From the NCBI RefSeq assembly GCF_009914755.1, contig NC_060932.1: a DNA stretch of 64,000 nucleotides. One strand, given 5' to 3'. This document shows positions 11,718 through 24,035 of the stretch, piece after piece (the first letter of the stretch is position 1; each line of letters opens with the position of its first letter). The DNA is from the human T2T-CHM13v2.0 reference genome, Homo sapiens. The notes beneath the pieces were generated by a model. The model ran no database searches. It had not been told where the DNA came from and was given only the letters and a program-made list of their open reading frames with translations. The position numbers and the translations under genes are program-made.

Positions 11718-13123
<1,406 letters not shown>

Positions 13124-16509: not shown

Positions 16510-17773
16510 CTTTTTTTTCTTTTCTTTTTTTTTTTTTTTTTTTGTTGTTGTTGTTGCTGAGGCTGGAGGGCAGTGGCACAATCCCTTTATGCTCTGTCTC
16601 AATCCCCATTGCAGCCTTGACCTCCCAGGCTCAAGCGATTCTCCCACCTCAGCCTCCCAAGTAGCTGGGACCACAGGCACGTGCCACCATGCTCAGCTAA
16701 TTTTTGTATTTTTAGTACAAACAAAGTTTTGCAGTGTTACCCAGGCTGGTCTCGAACTCCTGGGTTCAAGTGATCCACCCATCTCAGCCTCCCAAAGTGT
16801 TGGGATTACAGGTGTGAGCCACTGCAGCCCGCCAAGAACTGTTTTGCTCTGGACATGCTTCTTCACATTATTGAGCCTGTTTCAGGCTCAATAACTGTGA
16901 TTGATTAAATTTGGGTTTTCTTAGCTAACACCTAATCCAGTCTAGATCCCTTGGAATTAAGTCCAAGTAATCCTGATGGGCTTTTGGGTTTCCCTGAGTG
17001 TTCTTAATTTCAGTTTAGCATCATGTCTTTGAAACGTTGTGTCTTTTAGGCCCTGCCCTTTAATATTGGCTATATTAAGCACGTGGTTAACCAAAACCCT
17101 AGATTCCTTTTTATTAATTTGCTGCTAAAGCATGTCACCCCCATTCTGTACCAAATCAATTATTTGTGTTAATGTAAAGATGGATGATTACATTTAGTTT
17201 TGTTAAATTTCATCTTGTAGATGTTGGTACAATAGTCCAGTCTGTTAAAACAATTTTAGATCTCCACTTCTATTGCAGTAGGTACTCGTCTAAACTTTAC
17301 ATTATCTAAAAATGTATCACTGGGGAGATCATAAAATTTATAGACAGCAGGCACAAAGAAGACTTTTAGACGCTATCCTTTTTATTTATTGTTATTATTA
17401 TTTTAGAGACAGTGTTTCACTCTGTGTCCCAGGCTGGAGTCCAGTGGCACAATAATGTAATAGCTCACTGCAGCCTCGAACTCATGAGCTCGAGGGATCC
17501 TCCCACCTCAGCCTCCCAAAGTGTTGAGATTACAGGCATGTGCCACTACACCCAGCTAATCTTTATTTTATTTTATTTTATTTTATTTTATTTTATTTTA
17601 TTTTATTTATTTTATTTTATTTTATTTTATTTTATTTTATTTTATTTTATTTTATTTTGTAGAGAGGTCTTGATGTGTTGCCCAGGCTGGTCTCAAACTC
17701 TTGGCCTCAAGTGATCCTCCCACCTCAACCTCCCAAAGTGCTGGGATAACAGATGTAAGCCACCACACCCAGC
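16510..17773 (-). mobile_element. Two antisense Alus (16510-16830; 17380-17773, with (ATTTT)n expansion at 17563-17658 in the linker)
   Basis: Alu consensus; pentanucleotide microsatellite. Confidence 0.9.
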
Positions 17774-18499: not shown

Positions 18500-18974
18500 A
18501 GACATATGGATCAGGTCCACTCAAGTTCAAAGTAATGGAAGGCTTTGCAGTGGGAAAGTTGTCAGAATCAAAATTGGGTCACTTATGTCAGCCTTAACAA
18601 AATAGAGCCAGGAGGTCATGGAGGTAGGGGGAGGCTCTCAGGCATGATTTGCCTGATAAAAGGAACTATCACAGGAAATGTTATCAAACCATAGTTTGCT
18701 ACATGAGTCACACAAAGACAGCTAGCGGCTTGTACAAGAACACTTGCCTGACACACTGTCTCCACTAAAGAACTGACAACAACTCCTGTCATAAACCCTT
18801 GTAACCAATGTTCTGTTTGTTTCAAAACAATCTATATGTACTCTTTTGCCTTTAAAACTTCCCCTTACCTTAGCCTCCCTGGATGTGCCTAAGATTTGTC
18901 ATAGCATCTGTGTCCTGCAATTCCCAATTAAACTACATATTTTTAGAGAGCTTCTCTCTGTTATTTGGGTTGAC
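18500..18974 (+). mobile_element. ERV1 solo LTR (MER67-like)
   Basis: tgtcagaatcaaaattgggtcact...gcctgataaaaggaactatcaca...aattaaact...gttgaca. Confidence 0.65.
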
Positions 18975-19009
18975 AGGAGATAAAGAATAGAGTAAAATTT
19001 ACTGGTTAA

Positions 19010-19308
<299 letters not shown>

Positions 19309-19718
19309 GGTTAAGTACATTTGACTTTGGAGTCAAACTAGGGATTAAATCCTAATTCTACCACAAACTAGATATTTTAATCTCACAAGAGTTACTCAGT
19401 GGCTTTATGCCTCAGTTTTCTCACCTATAAGATGGCAAATATAATAGCTAGTCTTATTGGGTATTCGTAGATATTAAATGAAATTATATATCAGACTACC
19501 TAACTTATAGCAAGCATTTAATAAGTGGCAACTCTCATTATTATTATTTCATCACCATCAGTATTAGTATGAAGAAATGAAGCTGTAACAGTGTAATAAA
19601 ATGCAGTGGGTTTGGCATGATACATATGTTTCAACCATAACCTTATTTGTGTGTATATACATAGAGAATATATAAAATACAGGGCATACATAGGATATCA
19701 TATGCATATGATATCGTA

Positions 19719-20220
19719 TATCTAGCTGCCCTGAGATTTTGTTTTCACCTGTGTCTGTAGCAATGGCTTGCTGTCACTTCCATTGGTGTACTGGACTGTT
19801 GGTACTGAATTAAATGAGACAGGGAGTATTTAGCTGCTCTCGCCTTCCCTCTGATGGATTGTTTCTCAGTGATTGATGTTTATCCTTGTGCCTCTTTCCC
19901 CCCTCCAAAAAAATCAAATACCATCAAAACCAAGAGTCCATCAGACCCCAGAGACCTGAGGATAAACCGTAGTAAGGCAGCACGTGACTGTCCTTCCCCT
20001 CCTGCCTAAGACGCCACGTTAAGGAAACAGTCAAGGACAATTTCACTCACCCTTGGAAGGAATCACGGTGGTGAAAACTTCTATGTTCTCGTCACTGCAG
20101 CTGTAAATCTGATGCATCATTTCAGCCTCCTCTTCCCAAAGTGCCTGGGAACTGGAGGCCTCTGTCTCTGGACCCCTAGTCTCGAGGCATCCTAATCCAG
20201 TCCGGCTCAGGGATCATTGT
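19719..20220 (-). repeat. Inverted duplicate of VXN exon 1 plus 5' part of intron 1 (partner 21315-21815)
   Basis: Manual alignment to the reverse complement of 21315-21815: about 13 substitutions and one 1-bp indel in ~502 bp. Confidence 0.97.
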
Positions 20221-20716
20221 ACATGTATCACATATACGATATCATATATACAGATGATATATATGATATCATATAAACACATGATATATATGATATATAT
20301 ACACATGATATATATGATATATACACATGATATATATGATATTATATACACATGATATATATGATATATGGAACAGTATATAACCTGTGACCTCTATATG
20401 TAGCATAATAGGATTTATAAGATAATAAATATATAGGATAAATGTATTAGGATATATAGGGTAATACAAATATATATAGGGTAATACAAATATATACATA
20501 TGCTATATATACATATATCATATATACAAATATATATGATATATATACATACACAAATATATATGATATATATATATACACATACATATATACATATGAT
20601 ATACATACATATATAATAAATATGATATACGGGACAGTATATAATCTGTAACCTGTATATGTAGCATAATAGGGTTTATATAATATATTAGGATATATAG
20701 GGTAATACAAATATAA
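20221..20716. repeat. TA-rich (CATATA/GATATA) low-complexity tract with internal tandem duplication
   Basis: Block ggaacagtatataacctgtg...tagcataatagg...ggatatatagggtaatacaaatat occurs at ~20369-20493 and again at ~20631-20714. Confidence 0.9.
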
Positions 20717-20849
20717 CTTTCTATAATTTGCTCCTTGAACATGGGGCACTGCCTGTTGCCATGTCTCTGTGAGCACCTAAGGGTTATACGCGGAGGTACC
20801 AAACACAGGACCCTTGAGAAATGTCAGCCTTGTCATGTAATGGCATGAG

Positions 20850-21414
20850 GGGAAAACACTGGAGAAACAGTCCTTTTGTTTAAAATAGAAACTTCTAAGA
20901 GAGCCAAGTTAGCACATGACAAATTACTGAATATCCCGTTCTCCTGGAGGGGAGAAAAAAAAAAAAGCCCCTTCATTTCTGAAATGAGAAAGGGAATTGC
21001 TGGTACCAAAATTCACGTTTCCTTTTTGGTGGAAATTCTCCAGCCAAGCTTGGCGCTAACAGAGTAGGCGATTTCACTTCGTCGTCACCTCACAAAAGGC
21101 TTCCAAATTCACTGCGGCAGACACCGCAAAATAAAAATGTTAAATACATCCTAGCTGGGAGGGGATTGAAGCCTCCAGGCTCAATCAAAGGTTTGCAATA
21201 ATAGGATTCATTTAAAAAAAAAAAAAAAAAAAGGACAGATGGGTTTAGAAAATGTTGCAGTGAAGACTGGAACGAGATGAGCTCATAGCACCAGCCTGTC
21301 TTTTGTGGACCCGCACAATGATCCCTGAGCCAGACTGGATTAGGATGCCTCGCGACTAGGGGTCCAGAGACAGAGGCCTCCAGTTCCCAGGCACTTCGGG
21401 AAGAGGAGGCTGAA
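20850..21414 (+). promoter_or_regulatory. VXN: VXN promoter / 5' UTR region
   Basis: Unique sequence upstream of the ATG with retained CpGs, CGTCA half-CRE (~21083), ATCAAAG TCF-like motif (21184-21190) and CAGATG E-box (21236-21241); TSS cannot be placed from sequence. Confidence 0.6.
21318..21359 (+). other. Candidate uORF (MIPEPDWIRMPRD*) upstream of the VXN ATG
   Basis: acaATGa with A at -3, TAG ending at 21359, 55 nt before the main ATG. Confidence 0.5.
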
Positions 21415-21484
21415 ATGATGCATCAGATTTACAGCTGCAGTGACGAGAACATAGAAGTTTTCACCACCGTGATTCCTTCCAAGG
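21415..21484 (+). CDS. VXN: Vexin coding exon 1 (MMHQIYSCSDENIEVFTTVIPSK+G)
   Basis: ATG at 21415, 70 coding nt, donor AAGG|GTGAGT at 21485; matches the vexin/C8orf46 N-terminus as I recall it. Confidence 0.95.
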
Positions 21485-22579
21485 GTGAGTGAAATTGCCC
21501 TTGACTGTTTCCTTAACGTGGCATCTTAGGCAGGAGGGGAAGGACAGTCACGTGCTGCCTTACTACGGTTTATCCTCAGGTCTCTGGGGTCTGATGGACT
21601 CTCGGTTTTGATGGTATTTGATTTTTTGGAGGGGGGAAAGAGGCACAAGGATAAACATCAATCACTGAGAAACAATCCATCAAGGGGAAGGCGAGAGCAG
21701 CTAAATACTCCCTGTCTCATTTAATTCAGTACCAACAGTCCAGTACACCAATGGAAGTGACAGCAAGCCATTGCTATGCACACAGGTGAAAACAAAATCC
21801 CAGGGTAGCTAGATAGAGACTTTCATTTTTTCCAGTGAGCAAGTGGGTTCTGAAATGAGAACAGCTGGCTTAAAAGTATGATTTCTAACTGTGCCATGCA
21901 AAGTGCGGAGAAATACTCCCGGTGGCTGCTTGAAGTCCAGTGAAGCCGTCAGAGAGCGCCCTGACCCTGGGCTGGCTTCTCCACAGAACCCAGGGCCACC
22001 TTGCAAACTTAACCCGGAACTAATGCTGCCAGAGAATGCGACACGAGAGTCTTGACTTTATAAGCTCTTGTGGTCCTCAGTGAACGGTGTTAAGGGCTTT
22101 GTGTGAGGGTTCTGATGACTCCAAGTGTCTGGTTCCTGGTCAGTCCCCTCAGCCTCTCCTAAGCATGGCCCCCTCTCCTGCCGCCTCTGTTCTCTGCCTG
22201 CGCTCCTGTCTTGCCCCCTCCCATCCACCTCCATGACTCAGGCTTAGCCCCTGGTCTCATTGTCAGCCTTGAATGAAGTAGGCTGGGTGTTTGCTGGTGT
22301 TGTGAGCCCACATTCAAACAATTCCTTTCTTCCCCTGTGTCAGCCGCTGACAGGGCCATTGCACAGTGGGGCAGGGAGAGATTCCGTTTGGCCACAAAGA
22401 GACAGCCTGCAGGACATAAATTAAGCTTTAGACATTTACTGCCAGATCCAGAGAGAGGGAAAAGAGCTGGGAGTCTGCTGCCCACGTGCAGGAGTTGGAA
22501 TTCCCTCTGGAAACTCTGAAAGTCCAAGTTGACCCTCGGAATCAGCAGTTTCGCTTTTGGGTGGAACTCCTCTTACCCC

Positions 22580-24035
22580 TGGATGTTCACGGTGGCATTG
22601 ATTCTAAGAAGGCACAACTGAAAATAACCTGAGTGTCCATGAAGAGGGGAATGGTTAAAATGTGGTGCTGTCATGCTGTGGAATACTATACAATGTCAAC
22701 AGGAATAAACTAGATGTATGCCTGTGAACATAGGTAGATCTAAGCATAATGCTGAGTGCCAAATAAGCAGGCTGAAAAATTATATATGTAAGATAGCATT
22801 TCTGTAAATTTGAAAATATAAACCAATACTATATATTGTTTATGGATATGTATCTAGAGAAAAATACAAAAACATAGACCAGAAAGATACAGATAAAATT
22901 AGTGATCTCAGTAGTCTTGGGAAGGTAGGGAAGGAGAATTAGGGAAGGGTAGAAAGAGAACCAAAACATTGCCTCTGATTTTGTATTTCTTGTATATGAG
23001 AAGAAAACAAAGTAGAAGGAAATATGAAAATGTTACATGTGTTTATTTTCTATCATTTACTTCCATTTACAAAATTTTTAAAGGAAGAAAAAGTCAAAAC
23101 GAAGTGGTTAAGAGACTGCTGCCACTTCTGCACTGTGTGACCTTGGGCAAGCTACTTAACCTCTCTGGGCCTGAGTTTCCACTGCTGTAAATGGGAGAAA
23201 CAACTTATCTTCCAGGATCATATGGGGAATAAATGAGTAAATATATAAAGCATCTAGAACAGTAGCTGGCATGTAGTAAGCACCATTAAATACATCACTT
23301 AAAAAGTGATTTCCAATTTTATTTTGTATTTAGAATAATCAACATGATCAGTCAAAGATAAATATTTAATCTTATCTTTTTTCCCTTCCCATTTTCATTC
23401 ATGGCCACTTCCTTGTGGTACAAGAGTAGCTATCTTGTGAAGTTGCTGTAAAACCTTTTCCCAACCAAGTAACATGTTTAATGGTTAATTTCTTTAAGCT
23501 TTTTTATAATTGTGGCAAAATATGCATAACAAAATGTACCATTTTAAAAACTATTTTTAAGTGTACAGGTCAGTGGCATTAAGTCTATTCACATTGTTGT
23601 GCAACCATCACCCCCATCCATCCTAGCACTTCTTCATTATCCCAAACTAAAACTCTGAATCCGTTGAACACTAACTCATTCCCCCACTCTTCCAGCCACC
23701 AGTAACCACCATTCTACTTTTTGTCCTACAAATTTGGTTTTTTGTCCTTTTGTTTGTTTGTTTTTCTGTCTCTATGAATTTGACTACTCTAGGAACCCCA
23801 TATTAAGAGGAATTGTAGACTATGTGACATTTTGTGTCCGGCTTATTTCACTTAGTACCATGTTTTCAAGGTTCATCCATGTGTGGCATGTATCAGAATT
23901 CCATTCCTTTTCAAGGCTGAGTAATATTCCATCACATACAGACACCATATTTTGTTTATTCATTCATCTGTTGGTGGACATTTGGGTTGTTCCCAAACTT
24001 CAGCTCTTGTGAGTAATGCAGCTATGAACTTTGTA
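22580..24035. mobile_element. Intron 1 repeats: L1ME-like 22580-23000 (+), MIR 23100-23300, L1MB-like 3' end 23500-24035 (-)
   Basis: tgtgaccttgggcaagctacttaacctctctg (MIR); ttcacattgttgtgcaaccatcac (L1 3' end). Confidence 0.7.

What the first reader, a model, noticed from the sequence alone, without database searches (positions are those of the whole stretch)
20041..20220. Inverted copy keeps an intact exon-1 module (uORF, ATG, identical 70-nt CDS, splice donor) on the divergent strand
Seen: on the minus strand the ATG at 20120 and all 70 coding nt (20051-20120) are identical to VXN exon 1, and the donor AAGG|GTGAGT is intact. The two substitutions in the uORF copy (20176-20217) are both synonymous (CCA>CCG, CGC>CGA), which could be chance with n=2. 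Unspliced, it encodes a 25-aa peptide (MMHQ...PSKGE*). Known: upstream antisense transcripts are usually unstable because they lack U1 sites and meet early poly(A) signals. Inference: the copy supplies a strong U1 site, which could stabilise a spliced divergent lncRNA or a micro-protein sharing the vexin N-terminus, i.e. a gene-birth intermediate.
Basis: partly seen in the sequence, partly recalled or inferred. Interest (0 to 1): 0.7.

Follow-up and report, generated by a model that had tools for sequence, protein, structure and literature searches.

The report
Inverted half-kilobase copy of VXN exon 1
A 0.5-kb piece of the human VXN gene (first exon plus the start of its first intron) was copied in reverse orientation 1.1 kb upstream of the gene, and its intact start codon and splice site look like the result of the copy being young, not of its being used.

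Summary
Window 19719-20220 (minus strand) is a 97.2% identical inverted copy of 21315-21815, which is VXN exon 1 plus the first 331 nt of intron 1. There are 13 mismatches and 1 indel, and these are the only two copies in the genome. The 70 coding nt, the ATG, the donor AGG|GTGAGT and the 25-aa unspliced ORF are identical.

This intactness is what chance predicts at 2.6% divergence: P(0 changes in 70 nt) is 0.16-0.24, and Fisher p is 0.23. The "uORF" ATG (21318) lies 14 nt upstream of the annotated start of transcription (21332). The copy carries only 17 nt of upstream sequence, so it has no VXN promoter. The VXN promoter is not a CpG island.

The copy sits inside an AT-rich repeat, between two halves of a short hairpin-forming motif. 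That points to template-switch or break repair as its origin.

My best reading is a neutral, ape-age partial duplicate. A spliced divergent RNA, a hairpin dsRNA or a repeat-mediated flip of the promoter remain possible, but none can be tested here. The 100-nt identical tract will produce false "antisense" reads in stranded RNA-seq.

The parts
19719..20220 (-). Inverted partial copy of VXN: 17 nt upstream of the annotated start of transcription, all of exon 1, and the first 331 nt of intron 1 (502 nt).
   Evidence: 97.2% identical to 21315-21815, 13 mismatches + 1 indel; only two copies in the genome.
20051..20120 (-). Copy of the 70 coding nt of VXN exon 1, starting with ATG at 20120.
   Evidence: 70 of 70 identical to 21415-21484.
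20045..20053 (-). Copy of the exon 1 splice donor AGG|GTGAGT (intron begins at 20050).
   Evidence: the 9-mer is identical to 21482-21490; the only GTGAGT on the minus strand between 21314 and 18000.
20043..20120 (-). 25-codon ORF if unspliced (the same peptide as VXN exon 1 read into intron 1).
20176..20217 (-). Copy of a 14-codon ORF. In VXN its ATG (21318) lies upstream of the annotated start of transcription. The two differences (20203, 20182) are both synonymous.
   Evidence: annotated exon 1 start 21332 from the hub table.
19719..20050 (-). Copy of the first 331 nt of VXN intron 1. It carries 10 of the 13 mismatches and the indel.
21315..21815 (+). Source arm: VXN exon 1 (21332-21484) with 17 nt upstream and 331 nt of intron 1.
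   Evidence: hub annotation.
20221..20720 (.). AT-rich low-complexity part of the spacer (GC 0.17-0.34). It consists of 22-27-nt tandem units arranged as two units of about 261 nt.
   Evidence: (D13). Not a long palindrome (z = -1.5).
20721..21314 (+). Single-copy VXN upstream (promoter) region. It is the other part of the 1094-nt spacer enclosed by the two arms.
   Evidence: Not a CpG island. No TATA motif.
19706..19718 (.). Left half of a 13-nt inverted repeat that brackets the copy (16 nt if the 3 outermost arm bases are counted).
   Evidence: perfect inverted match to 20235-20247. Core 8-mers are unique in the window. 1 of 2000 shuffles reach 13 nt.
20235..20247 (.). Right half of the bracketing 13-nt inverted repeat, 14 nt from the inner end of the copy.

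Best explanation
This is a neutral, promoter-less partial duplicate of VXN, an unprocessed pseudo-exon fragment. A 501-nt piece running from 17 nt upstream of the start of transcription to 331 nt into intron 1 was copied in inverted orientation into an AT-rich repeat 1.1 kb upstream.

The most likely origin is a replication template switch, or repair of a break, at a short hairpin-forming AT-rich motif. The sequence 1.1 kb away on the same or the sister molecule served as template.

The intact ATG, coding stretch and splice donor reflect the low divergence of the whole copy (2.6%), not selection on these parts.

Shown: the anatomy, the copy number, the divergence, the lack of excess conservation, the lack of a copied promoter and the bracketing hairpin motif. 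Inferred: the mechanism of origin, the age (roughly 10-25 million years, so shared with other apes) and the lack of function.

Practical consequences: it is a mapping hazard for VXN exon-1 reads, and it is a 0.5-kb inverted repeat enclosing the VXN promoter.
For: - Whole-arm identity is 97.2%, with mismatches spread over the arm: 3 in exon 1 and 10 in the intron part.
- The module is not conserved above background: Fisher p=0.23 and 0.76; P(0 changes in 70 nt) is 0.16-0.24.
- 5 of the 13 mismatches are at CpG sites. The CpG is missing in the copy at 3 and in the VXN arm at 2. CpG counts are 9 and 10, with 7 shared. That is symmetric decay, as expected of two methylated, unconstrained sequences.
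- There are 11 transitions and 2 transversions; K2P is 0.0265.
- Homology starts only 17 nt upstream of the annotated start of transcription, and both ends abut AT-rich sequence.
- The left flank resembles the AT-rich spacer in direct orientation (local score 43, against 32 in inverted orientation). This fits insertion into a pre-existing AT-rich array.
- The copy is bracketed by a 13-nt inverted repeat whose cores are unique in the 64-kb window. Without the copy, the flanks would fold into a 13-bp stem with a 14-nt loop. Three nt of microhomology lie at the outer junction.
- The genome holds only two copies, so this is not a transposon.
- No minus-strand gene is annotated there (hub table).
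- No paper names a VXN antisense or divergent transcript: 0 papers.
Against: - Neutrality is inferred from a lack of signal in a 501-nt comparison with 13 differences. The power to detect weak constraint is low.
- Both changes in the 14-codon ORF are synonymous. Only 22 of 126 possible single changes are synonymous, so the nominal joint chance is roughly 0.03-0.07.
- No canonical poly(A) hexamer lies on the minus strand from the VXN promoter to the donor (0 in 1264 nt). A divergent transcript would therefore not be cut early by a canonical signal.
- The AT-rich flank places a TATA-like run about 30-35 nt upstream of the copy's equivalent of the start of transcription (printout).
- Gene conversion between the arms could mimic youth.
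- No expression, methylation, population or cross-species data could be consulted.
Confidence: 0.65

Rival explanations
1. Upstream antisense transcription from the VXN promoter, or initiation in the AT-rich flank, runs into the copy. The copy's strong U1 site protects the transcript from early cleavage and lets it splice, giving a young spliced divergent lncRNA or a micro-protein that starts like vexin.
For: - The donor is identical to one that VXN itself uses (hub exon end 21484).
- It is the only GTGAGT on the minus strand from 21314 to 18000.
- There are 0 canonical poly(A) hexamers between the promoter and the donor, and the first ATTAAA lies 528 nt past the donor.
- PMC4697840 (passages) reports a gain of U1 sites downstream of the starts of de novo transcripts, and treats poly(A) signals less than 500 nt after a U1 site as neutralised.
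- Acceptor-like sites exist on the minus strand from 4.6 kb onward, and reading the exon-1 frame into six crude candidates gives ORFs of 35-91 codons.
Against: - No promoter was copied.
- The donor is about 1.28 kb from the VXN start of transcription, while bidirectional pairs peak at about 100 nt (PMC4697840).
- The promoter is not a CpG island, and PMC3882496 ties bidirectional transcription mainly to CpG-island promoters.
- The lack of poly(A) signals is not significant (P=0.39), and 9 variant hexamers are present.
- There is no conservation signal.
- There is no RefSeq model on that strand (hub table).
- No paper names such a transcript.
Confidence: 0.12
2. Hairpin or antisense regulator. 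A transcript that spans both arms, on either strand, folds into a double-stranded RNA of about 490 bp containing the VXN 5'UTR, ATG and donor. Such an RNA would be a substrate for ADAR editing or small-RNA production. Alternatively, a plus-strand transcript through the copy alone would act as an antisense RNA to the 5' end of VXN mRNA.
For: Folding the plus-strand RNA 19700-21835 gives -1297 kcal/mol with 492 arm-to-arm pairs. The duplex of the arms alone gives -1002 kcal/mol.
Against: - The reference VXN mRNA starts inside the right arm and so contains only one arm (hub table).
- No annotated transcript on either strand spans 19719-21815 (hub table).
- Rfam gave only Alu-derived or sub-threshold low-complexity hits in 18500-23000: 9 hits at E<=1, none reaching its gathering score.
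Confidence: 0.06
3. Invertible promoter cassette. Homologous recombination between the two inverted arms flips the 1094-nt spacer. Because homology starts 17 nt upstream of the start of transcription, the flipped state joins the VXN upstream region to the copy exactly as it is joined to VXN now. The promoter would then drive the copy on the minus strand and VXN would lose its promoter, as a rare polymorphism, a null allele or a somatic event.
For: - The geometry follows directly from the sequence.
- Inverted repeats are known to mediate recurrent human inversions, including one that swaps the first exons of AQP12A and AQP12B (PMC3961182, passages).
- Intrachromosomal repeats of 200 nt or more at 80% identity or more are considered substrates for ectopic recombination (PMC11794170, abstract).
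Against: - The arms are short, and their longest perfect tract is 100 nt.
- The inversions in PMC3961182 were 5.1-226 kb with kb-scale repeats.
- Most human inversions under 2 kb are ascribed to L1 twin priming (abstract of 10.1101/2021.12.20.472354, search listing only).
- VXN or C8orf46 is not named in the readable supplements of PMC11794170 (0 hits in 2 files; a third file was unreadable).
- No coordinate hit in the supplements of PMC13721702 (0 hits in 2 files).
Confidence: 0.06
4. Duplicated cis-regulatory module. The copy adds a second, mirror-image set of the protein-binding sites found in VXN exon 1 and proximal intron 1, and so acts as part of the VXN promoter or enhancer.
For: CACGTG (21549 / 19981), CAGCTG (21432 / 20098) and a CRE half-site (21441 / 20090) are kept in both arms. 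The motif names are recalled, not tested. The VXN locus and promoter show brain-specific H3K27 acetylation (PMC7722677, passages).
Against: At 2.6% divergence, keeping three 5-6-nt motifs is what chance predicts. No binding or reporter data were available. ChIP reads in the identical tract multi-map.
Confidence: 0.07
5. An assembly artefact, or a rearrangement private to the CHM13 genome.
For: Only one assembly could be examined.
Against: 13 mismatches and an indel between the arms are far more than an assembly collapse or duplication error, or an event within the age of human variation, would give. Both junctions are clean.
Confidence: 0.02

Closest known systems
Small intrachromosomal inverted repeat pairs, as mapped genome-wide by Fernandez-Luna et al. 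2024 (PMC11794170; 200 nt or more, 80% identity or more)
   Same: Two copies on one chromosome in inverted orientation, 501 nt, 97.2% identical, overlapping a protein-coding gene's first exon and flanking its promoter.
   Different: It is not made of Alu or other dispersed repeats, since the genome holds exactly two copies. It is too short for classical segmental-duplication catalogues (1 kb or more). This pair is not named in the parts of that paper I could read.
Partial (unprocessed) gene duplicates and pseudogene fragments
   Same: It keeps intron sequence next to the exon, lacks the rest of the gene and lacks the parent's promoter.
   Different: It lies head-to-head with its parent only 1.1 kb away, so parent and copy share one intervening promoter region. 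The ATG and donor are still intact.
U1-poly(A) control of promoter direction, and new genes from divergent transcription (Almada et al. 2013; Wu and Sharp 2013; seen only as reference-list entries, content recalled)
   Same: A consensus-like 5' splice site lies on the upstream antisense side of a promoter, with no canonical poly(A) hexamer before it.
   Different: In that model U1 sites are gained by point mutation, close to the antisense start of transcription. Here a whole exon-plus-donor module arrived in one step by duplication. It lies about 1.28 kb away, next to a promoter that is not a CpG island. No transcript is known.
Inverted-repeat-mediated inversions (e.g. HsInv0241, which swaps the first exons of AQP12A and AQP12B; PMC3961182)
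   Same: Inverted repeats containing a first exon flank a segment whose inversion would re-pair promoter and exon.
   Different: The repeats here are 0.5 kb with a perfect tract of at most 100 nt. The enclosed segment is 1.1 kb, and only one of the two arms belongs to a complete gene. No inverted allele is known.
Hairpin-RNA loci born from inverted gene duplication (e.g. maize Mu killer, PMC3440606, and young plant miRNA genes, 10.1101/2024.07.25.605110; search-listing abstracts only)
   Same: An inverted duplicate of part of a gene lies next to its target, and a spanning transcript would form a long perfect hairpin.
   Different: There is no evidence that both arms are ever on one transcript, and long hairpin silencing is not a general somatic pathway in mammals (recalled).
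Palindromic AT-rich repeats (PATRRs; recalled, no paper read)
   Same: The insertion site is AT-rich and carries a short hairpin-forming inverted motif.
   Different: The AT-rich tract is not a long near-perfect palindrome (DNA fold z = -1.5, with 4 of 100 shuffles folding as well). The stem is only 13-16 bp.

Membership tests
Intrachromosomal inverted repeat pair / micro segmental duplication | Two copies on the same chromosome in opposite orientation, 200 nt or more and 80% identity or more (criteria of PMC11794170) | tested here: met
   501 nt, 97.2%, inverted, 1094 nt apart.
Intrachromosomal inverted repeat pair / micro segmental duplication | Not a member of a dispersed repeat family | tested here: met
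   Exactly 2 matches in the 3.1-Gb assembly. That tool's counts are lower bounds for very common words.
Classical segmental duplication | Length 1 kb or more at 90% identity or more (threshold recalled) | tested here: not met
   The arms are 501-502 nt, and homology stops sharply at both ends.
Unprocessed partial pseudogene | Contains parental intron sequence contiguous with the exon | tested here: met
   331 nt of intron 1 follow the exon-1 copy.
Unprocessed partial pseudogene | Cannot encode the parental protein (the rest of the gene is missing) | tested here: met
   Only exon 1 is duplicated. No other pair of 90% identity or more and 120 nt or more in the window involves VXN exons.
Divergent (upstream antisense) lncRNA stabilised by a U1 site | An antisense start of transcription sharing the promoter (typically within about 100 nt to 1 kb) | not testable with these tools
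   No CAGE or RNA data. The copy's start-equivalent (20203) is 1129 nt, and its donor 1281 nt, from the VXN start.
Divergent (upstream antisense) lncRNA stabilised by a U1 site | A 5' splice site present and poly(A) signals depleted downstream of the antisense start | tested here: inconclusive
   The donor is present. There are 0 canonical hexamers in 1264 nt, but 39% of shuffles also give 0, and 9 variant hexamers are present.
Divergent (upstream antisense) lncRNA stabilised by a U1 site | A spliced, stable transcript is observed | not testable with these tools
   None in the RefSeq table supplied. 0 papers for VXN-DT, VXN-AS1, VXN-AS or C8orf46-AS1.
CpG-island bidirectional promoter | GC above 0.5 and CpG observed/expected above 0.6 over 200 nt or more around the start of transcription (criteria recalled) | tested here: not met
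   In the 200-nt windows from 20800 to 21999, GC is 0.40-0.52 and o/e is 0.13-0.68. No window meets both criteria.
   The ATG is at 21318 and annotated exon 1 starts at 21332 (hub table). Only the nested 5-codon ORF from 21345 is inside.
Palindromic AT-rich repeat (PATRR) | A long, near-perfect AT-rich palindrome | tested here: not met
   Spacer 20221-20720 folded as DNA: z = -1.5, with 4 of 100 shuffles folding as well. Only a 13-nt stem brackets the copy.
Inverted-repeat-mediated polymorphic inversion | Both orientations of the enclosed segment are found in a population | not testable with these tools
   Only one assembly is held. No hit in the readable supplements.
Known structured RNA family (Rfam 15) | A match at the family's gathering score | tested here: not met
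   9 hits at E<=1 in 18500-23000, all below their gathering scores. The best are Alu-derived at 19023-19172.

The most novel reading that the evidence does not exclude
One promoter sits between two mirror-image first exons. Either VXN's upstream antisense transcripts acquire VXN's own ATG and donor and become an ape-specific spliced divergent RNA or micro-protein, or recombination between the arms flips the 1.1-kb promoter cassette so that it drives the copy instead of VXN. In the first case a ready-made U1 module would have been delivered by duplication in one step. In the second, the locus would be a eukaryotic analogue of a bacterial invertible promoter switch and a hidden source of VXN null alleles or mosaicism.
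Probability: 0.1. Interest if true: 0.65.

Novelty: new member of a known kind. Interest (0 to 1): 0.3.

Why it matters
As a neutral duplicate it matters mainly in practice. A 100-nt tract (21398-21497 = 20038-20137 on the other strand) is identical in both arms. It covers the end of the VXN 5'UTR, the ATG, all exon-1 coding bases and the donor. Short RNA-seq, ChIP, ATAC, bisulfite or array probes placed there cannot tell the two places apart. In a stranded library, genuine VXN mRNA reads can be reported as 'antisense' transcription 1.2 kb upstream.

If the copy were transcribed and spliced, it would be a natural experiment on the U1/poly(A) rule of promoter direction. It would also be a one-step route to a divergent gene. 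The structure further shows a clean case of an inverted templated insertion at a short AT-rich hairpin.

Tried and rejected
- Rfam on 18500-23000, both strands: only Alu-derived or sub-threshold low-complexity hits.
- A PATRR-like long palindrome in the AT-rich spacer: rejected.
- Depletion of canonical poly(A) hexamers on the antisense path: real (0 hexamers) but not significant.
- Excess conservation of the exon-1 module: rejected.
- Other VXN-derived duplicates in the window: none. The only other pair of 90% identity or more and 120 nt or more is an Alu pair.
- Literature, VXN itself: the search for vexin or C8orf46 returned 3,562 papers, most of them matches to the word 'vexing'. None of the 25 listed deals with the promoter structure.
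- Literature, transcript names: 0 papers for VXN-DT, VXN-AS1, VXN-AS or C8orf46-AS1.
- Literature, structure: a search on inverted duplication, first exon, promoter, hairpin and human-specific gave nothing on this locus.
- Supplements: 0 hits for VXN or C8orf46 in the two readable files of PMC11794170, with a third file too large to read. 0 hits for T2T coordinates or VXN in the two files of PMC13721702. These blanks do not show that the pair is absent from the authors' full repeat or inversion maps.
- Papers not held: PMC5899665 (Xenopus vexin), PMC3720719 (Almada 2013) and PMC3899942 (Wu and Sharp 2013). Their content is recalled only.
- Cross-species and cross-assembly comparison: no tool here holds another human or primate genome. 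The age, the direction of each substitution and the choice between simple insertion and inversion with a staggered break remain inferred.
- The crude acceptor scan is a home-made filter, not a validated splice-site model. Treat it as a lead only.

Full report
**1. What is there**

Reading the window and the repeat searches show a two-arm inverted repeat. A local alignment and a self-BLAST of the window fix the arms at 19719-20220 and 21315-21815. There are 501 aligned positions, 13 mismatches (11 transitions, 2 transversions), one single-base indel in a T run, and 97.2% identity.

According to the supplied RefSeq table, the right arm is VXN exon 1 (21332-21484) with 17 nt upstream and the first 331 nt of intron 1. 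The left arm is its reverse complement. The arms are 1094 nt apart.

A search of the whole 3.1-Gb assembly with the left arm finds exactly these two places. The repeat is therefore a local duplication, not a transposon. Within the window the only other pair at 90% identity or more over 120 nt or more is a pair of Alus.

**2.

Every sequence statement checks out:
- The 70 coding nt are identical.
- The ATG is at 20120 on the minus strand.
- The donor 9-mer AGG|GTGAGT is identical.
- The unspliced reading gives the same 25-residue peptide in both arms.
- The 42-nt ORF copy (20217-20176) differs at two positions, both synonymous.

Two corrections are needed. First, the ATG of that 42-nt ORF in VXN is at 21318, 14 nt upstream of the annotated first base of NM_152765.4 (21332). 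It is therefore not an upstream ORF of the reference mRNA unless transcription also starts further upstream. The first 'uORF substitution' (21332 A against G) is the annotated +1 base itself. Second, without an outgroup, none of the 13 differences can be assigned to the copy or to VXN.

**3. Is the intact module more than chance?**

No.
- With 13 differences in 501 positions, the chance that a given 70-nt stretch has none is 0.16. It is 0.24 if the clustered mismatches (21683-84 and 21777-79) are counted as single events.
- Fisher's test of 0 of 70 against 13 of 431 gives p=0.23.
- For exon 1 plus donor, 3 of 159 against 10 of 342 gives p=0.76.
- Two synonymous changes out of two has a nominal chance of about 0.03-0.07, since 22 of 126 possible changes are synonymous, and 11 of 42 transitions. 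But this is post hoc, n=2, concerns a frame whose start is outside the annotated transcript, and both sites lie in CpG contexts.
- Five of the 13 mismatches are at CpG sites. The CpG is missing from the copy at three and from the VXN arm at two. The arms have 9 and 10 CpGs, 7 of them shared. This symmetric decay is what two unconstrained, methylated sequences would show.

**4. Surroundings and origin**

Homology ends sharply at both ends. The copy is embedded in AT-rich, low-complexity DNA.
- To its right lie 500 nt of 22-27-nt AT-rich tandem units, arranged as two units of about 261 nt (GC 0.17-0.34).
- To its left lie about 100 nt of similar sequence, which aligns weakly with the right tract in direct orientation (score 43 against 32 inverted).

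The remaining 594 nt of the spacer (20721-21314) are the single-copy VXN upstream region.

The copy is bracketed by a perfect 13-nt inverted repeat, 19706-19718 against 20235-20247. It is 16 nt if the three outermost arm bases are included, which means 3 nt of microhomology at the outer junction. Its CG-containing cores occur once each in the 64-kb window. Only 1 of 2000 shuffles of the flanks reaches 13 nt. With the copy removed, the flanks would fold as a 13-bp stem with a 14-nt loop.

The AT-rich tract as a whole is not a long palindrome (z = -1.5).

I infer that a replication fork stalled, or a break formed, at a small AT-rich hairpin. It was resolved by copying 501 nt from 1.1 kb away on the complementary strand, by fold-back or template switch, before returning at a microhomology. 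An inversion with a staggered break is an alternative that only an outgroup can exclude.

**5. Age**

The K2P distance is 0.0265, and the Poisson range for 13 events is wide. With recalled substitution rates of 0.5-1.2e-9 per site per year, this gives about 11-27 million years. That is too old to be private to one human genome or to be an assembly error. It is young enough that an intact 160-nt module is unremarkable. Gene conversion between the arms would make the copy look younger than it is.

**6.

The copy brings no promoter. A minus-strand transcript would have to start in the AT-rich flank or come from upstream antisense initiation at the VXN promoter.

Against this:
- The VXN promoter region fails CpG-island criteria in every 200-nt window from 20800 to 21999 and has no TATA motif.
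- Passages of PMC3882496 tie bidirectional transcription essentially to CpG-island promoters.
- Passages of PMC4697840 put the usual distance between paired divergent starts near 100 nt. The copy's donor is 1281 nt from the VXN start.
- RefSeq has no minus-strand model here (hub table), and no paper uses a name for one.

For this:
- The donor is the only GTGAGT on the minus strand between 21314 and 18000.
- No AATAAA or ATTAAA lies on the minus strand between the promoter and the donor. However, 39% of shuffles also have none, and nine variant hexamers are present.
- The first ATTAAA follows 528 nt after the donor. That is just beyond the 500 nt within which PMC4697840 treats poly(A) signals as neutralised by U1.
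- The AT-rich flank supplies a TATA-like run some 30-35 nt upstream of the copy's start-equivalent (printout).
- A crude scan finds acceptor-like sites on the minus strand only from 4.6 kb onward, the nearest two in Alu poly-T tracts.

None of this can settle the matter. Expression data are decisive and were not available.

**7. Other consequences of the structure**

(a) Any RNA spanning both arms would fold into a duplex of about 490 bp (-1297 kcal/mol, 492 arm-to-arm pairs). The reference mRNA contains only one arm, though, and no annotated transcript spans both.

(b) The arms enclose the VXN upstream region, and homology begins 17 nt before the start of transcription. Recombination between the arms would invert the 1094-nt spacer. 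That would rejoin the promoter to the copy exactly as it is joined to VXN now, leaving VXN behind the AT-rich tract. Inverted repeats do mediate recurrent human inversions, one of which swaps the first exons of AQP12A and AQP12B (PMC3961182, passages). Those repeats are kilobases long, however, and here the longest perfect tract is 100 nt. I found no record of such an inversion. Those searches covered only small supplementary files.

(c) The 100-nt perfect tract covers the VXN ATG, the exon-1 coding bases and the donor. Short reads or probes from VXN mRNA can therefore be placed on the minus strand at 20038-20137. This mimics the very 'divergent transcript' one would be looking for.

**8. Verdict**

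The interpretation as a gene-birth intermediate is neither supported nor excluded.

The best-supported account (about 0.65) is a neutral, ape-age, promoter-less inverted partial duplicate of VXN. It was created by template switching at an AT-rich hairpin, and its intact start codon and splice donor reflect low overall divergence.

It is a new example of a known kind of feature: a small inverted duplication, or partial unprocessed pseudogene. Its interest is modest. The head-to-head arrangement around a single promoter makes it a neat, cheaply testable case for ideas on promoter direction and on repeat-mediated promoter inversion.

Noticed in passing
window 19706-19718 and 20235-20247: A perfect 13-nt inverted repeat brackets the inverted VXN copy (16 nt with 3 arm bases). 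Its cores are unique in the window. Without the copy the flanks would form a small hairpin, which suggests the insertion hit an AT-rich quasi-palindrome.
   Followed up: partly
window 20221-20720: An AT-rich minisatellite-like tract (GC 0.17-0.34) of 22-27-nt units, organised as two units of about 261 nt (20344-20424 against 20605-20685, 84% identical). It gives weak, sub-threshold Rfam hits to the mir-297 and mir-466 families, which I take to be low-complexity matches.
   Followed up: partly
window 21214-21232: An uninterrupted run of 19 A about 100 nt upstream of the annotated VXN start of transcription. It is likely length-polymorphic. Its origin (for example the tail of an old retroposed element) was not examined.
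   Followed up: no
window 17567-17661 (minus strand): A pentanucleotide (AATAA)n array that gives about 19 overlapping AATAAA hexamers on the minus strand. It would be a dense poly(A)-signal block for any minus-strand transcript coming from the VXN side.
   Followed up: no
window 11850-12141 and 12792-13080: An inverted pair of Alu-like repeats, 90.4% identical over 292 nt and about 650 nt apart. It is the only other repeat pair in the window at 90% identity or more over 120 nt or more.
   Followed up: no
window 21398-21497 = 20038-20137 (opposite strand): A 100-nt perfectly identical tract covers the VXN ATG, the exon-1 coding bases and the donor. Reads or probes within it cannot be assigned to a locus or a strand. 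A 450K-array probe annotated to C8orf46 (cg15444185) was reported as differentially methylated in ALS (PMC6547746, passages). I could not determine where that probe lies.
   Followed up: partly
window 19023-19172: An Alu element, sense on the minus strand, lies just beyond the copy. It gives Rfam hits to SRP RNA and mir-1268 below their gathering scores.
   Followed up: no
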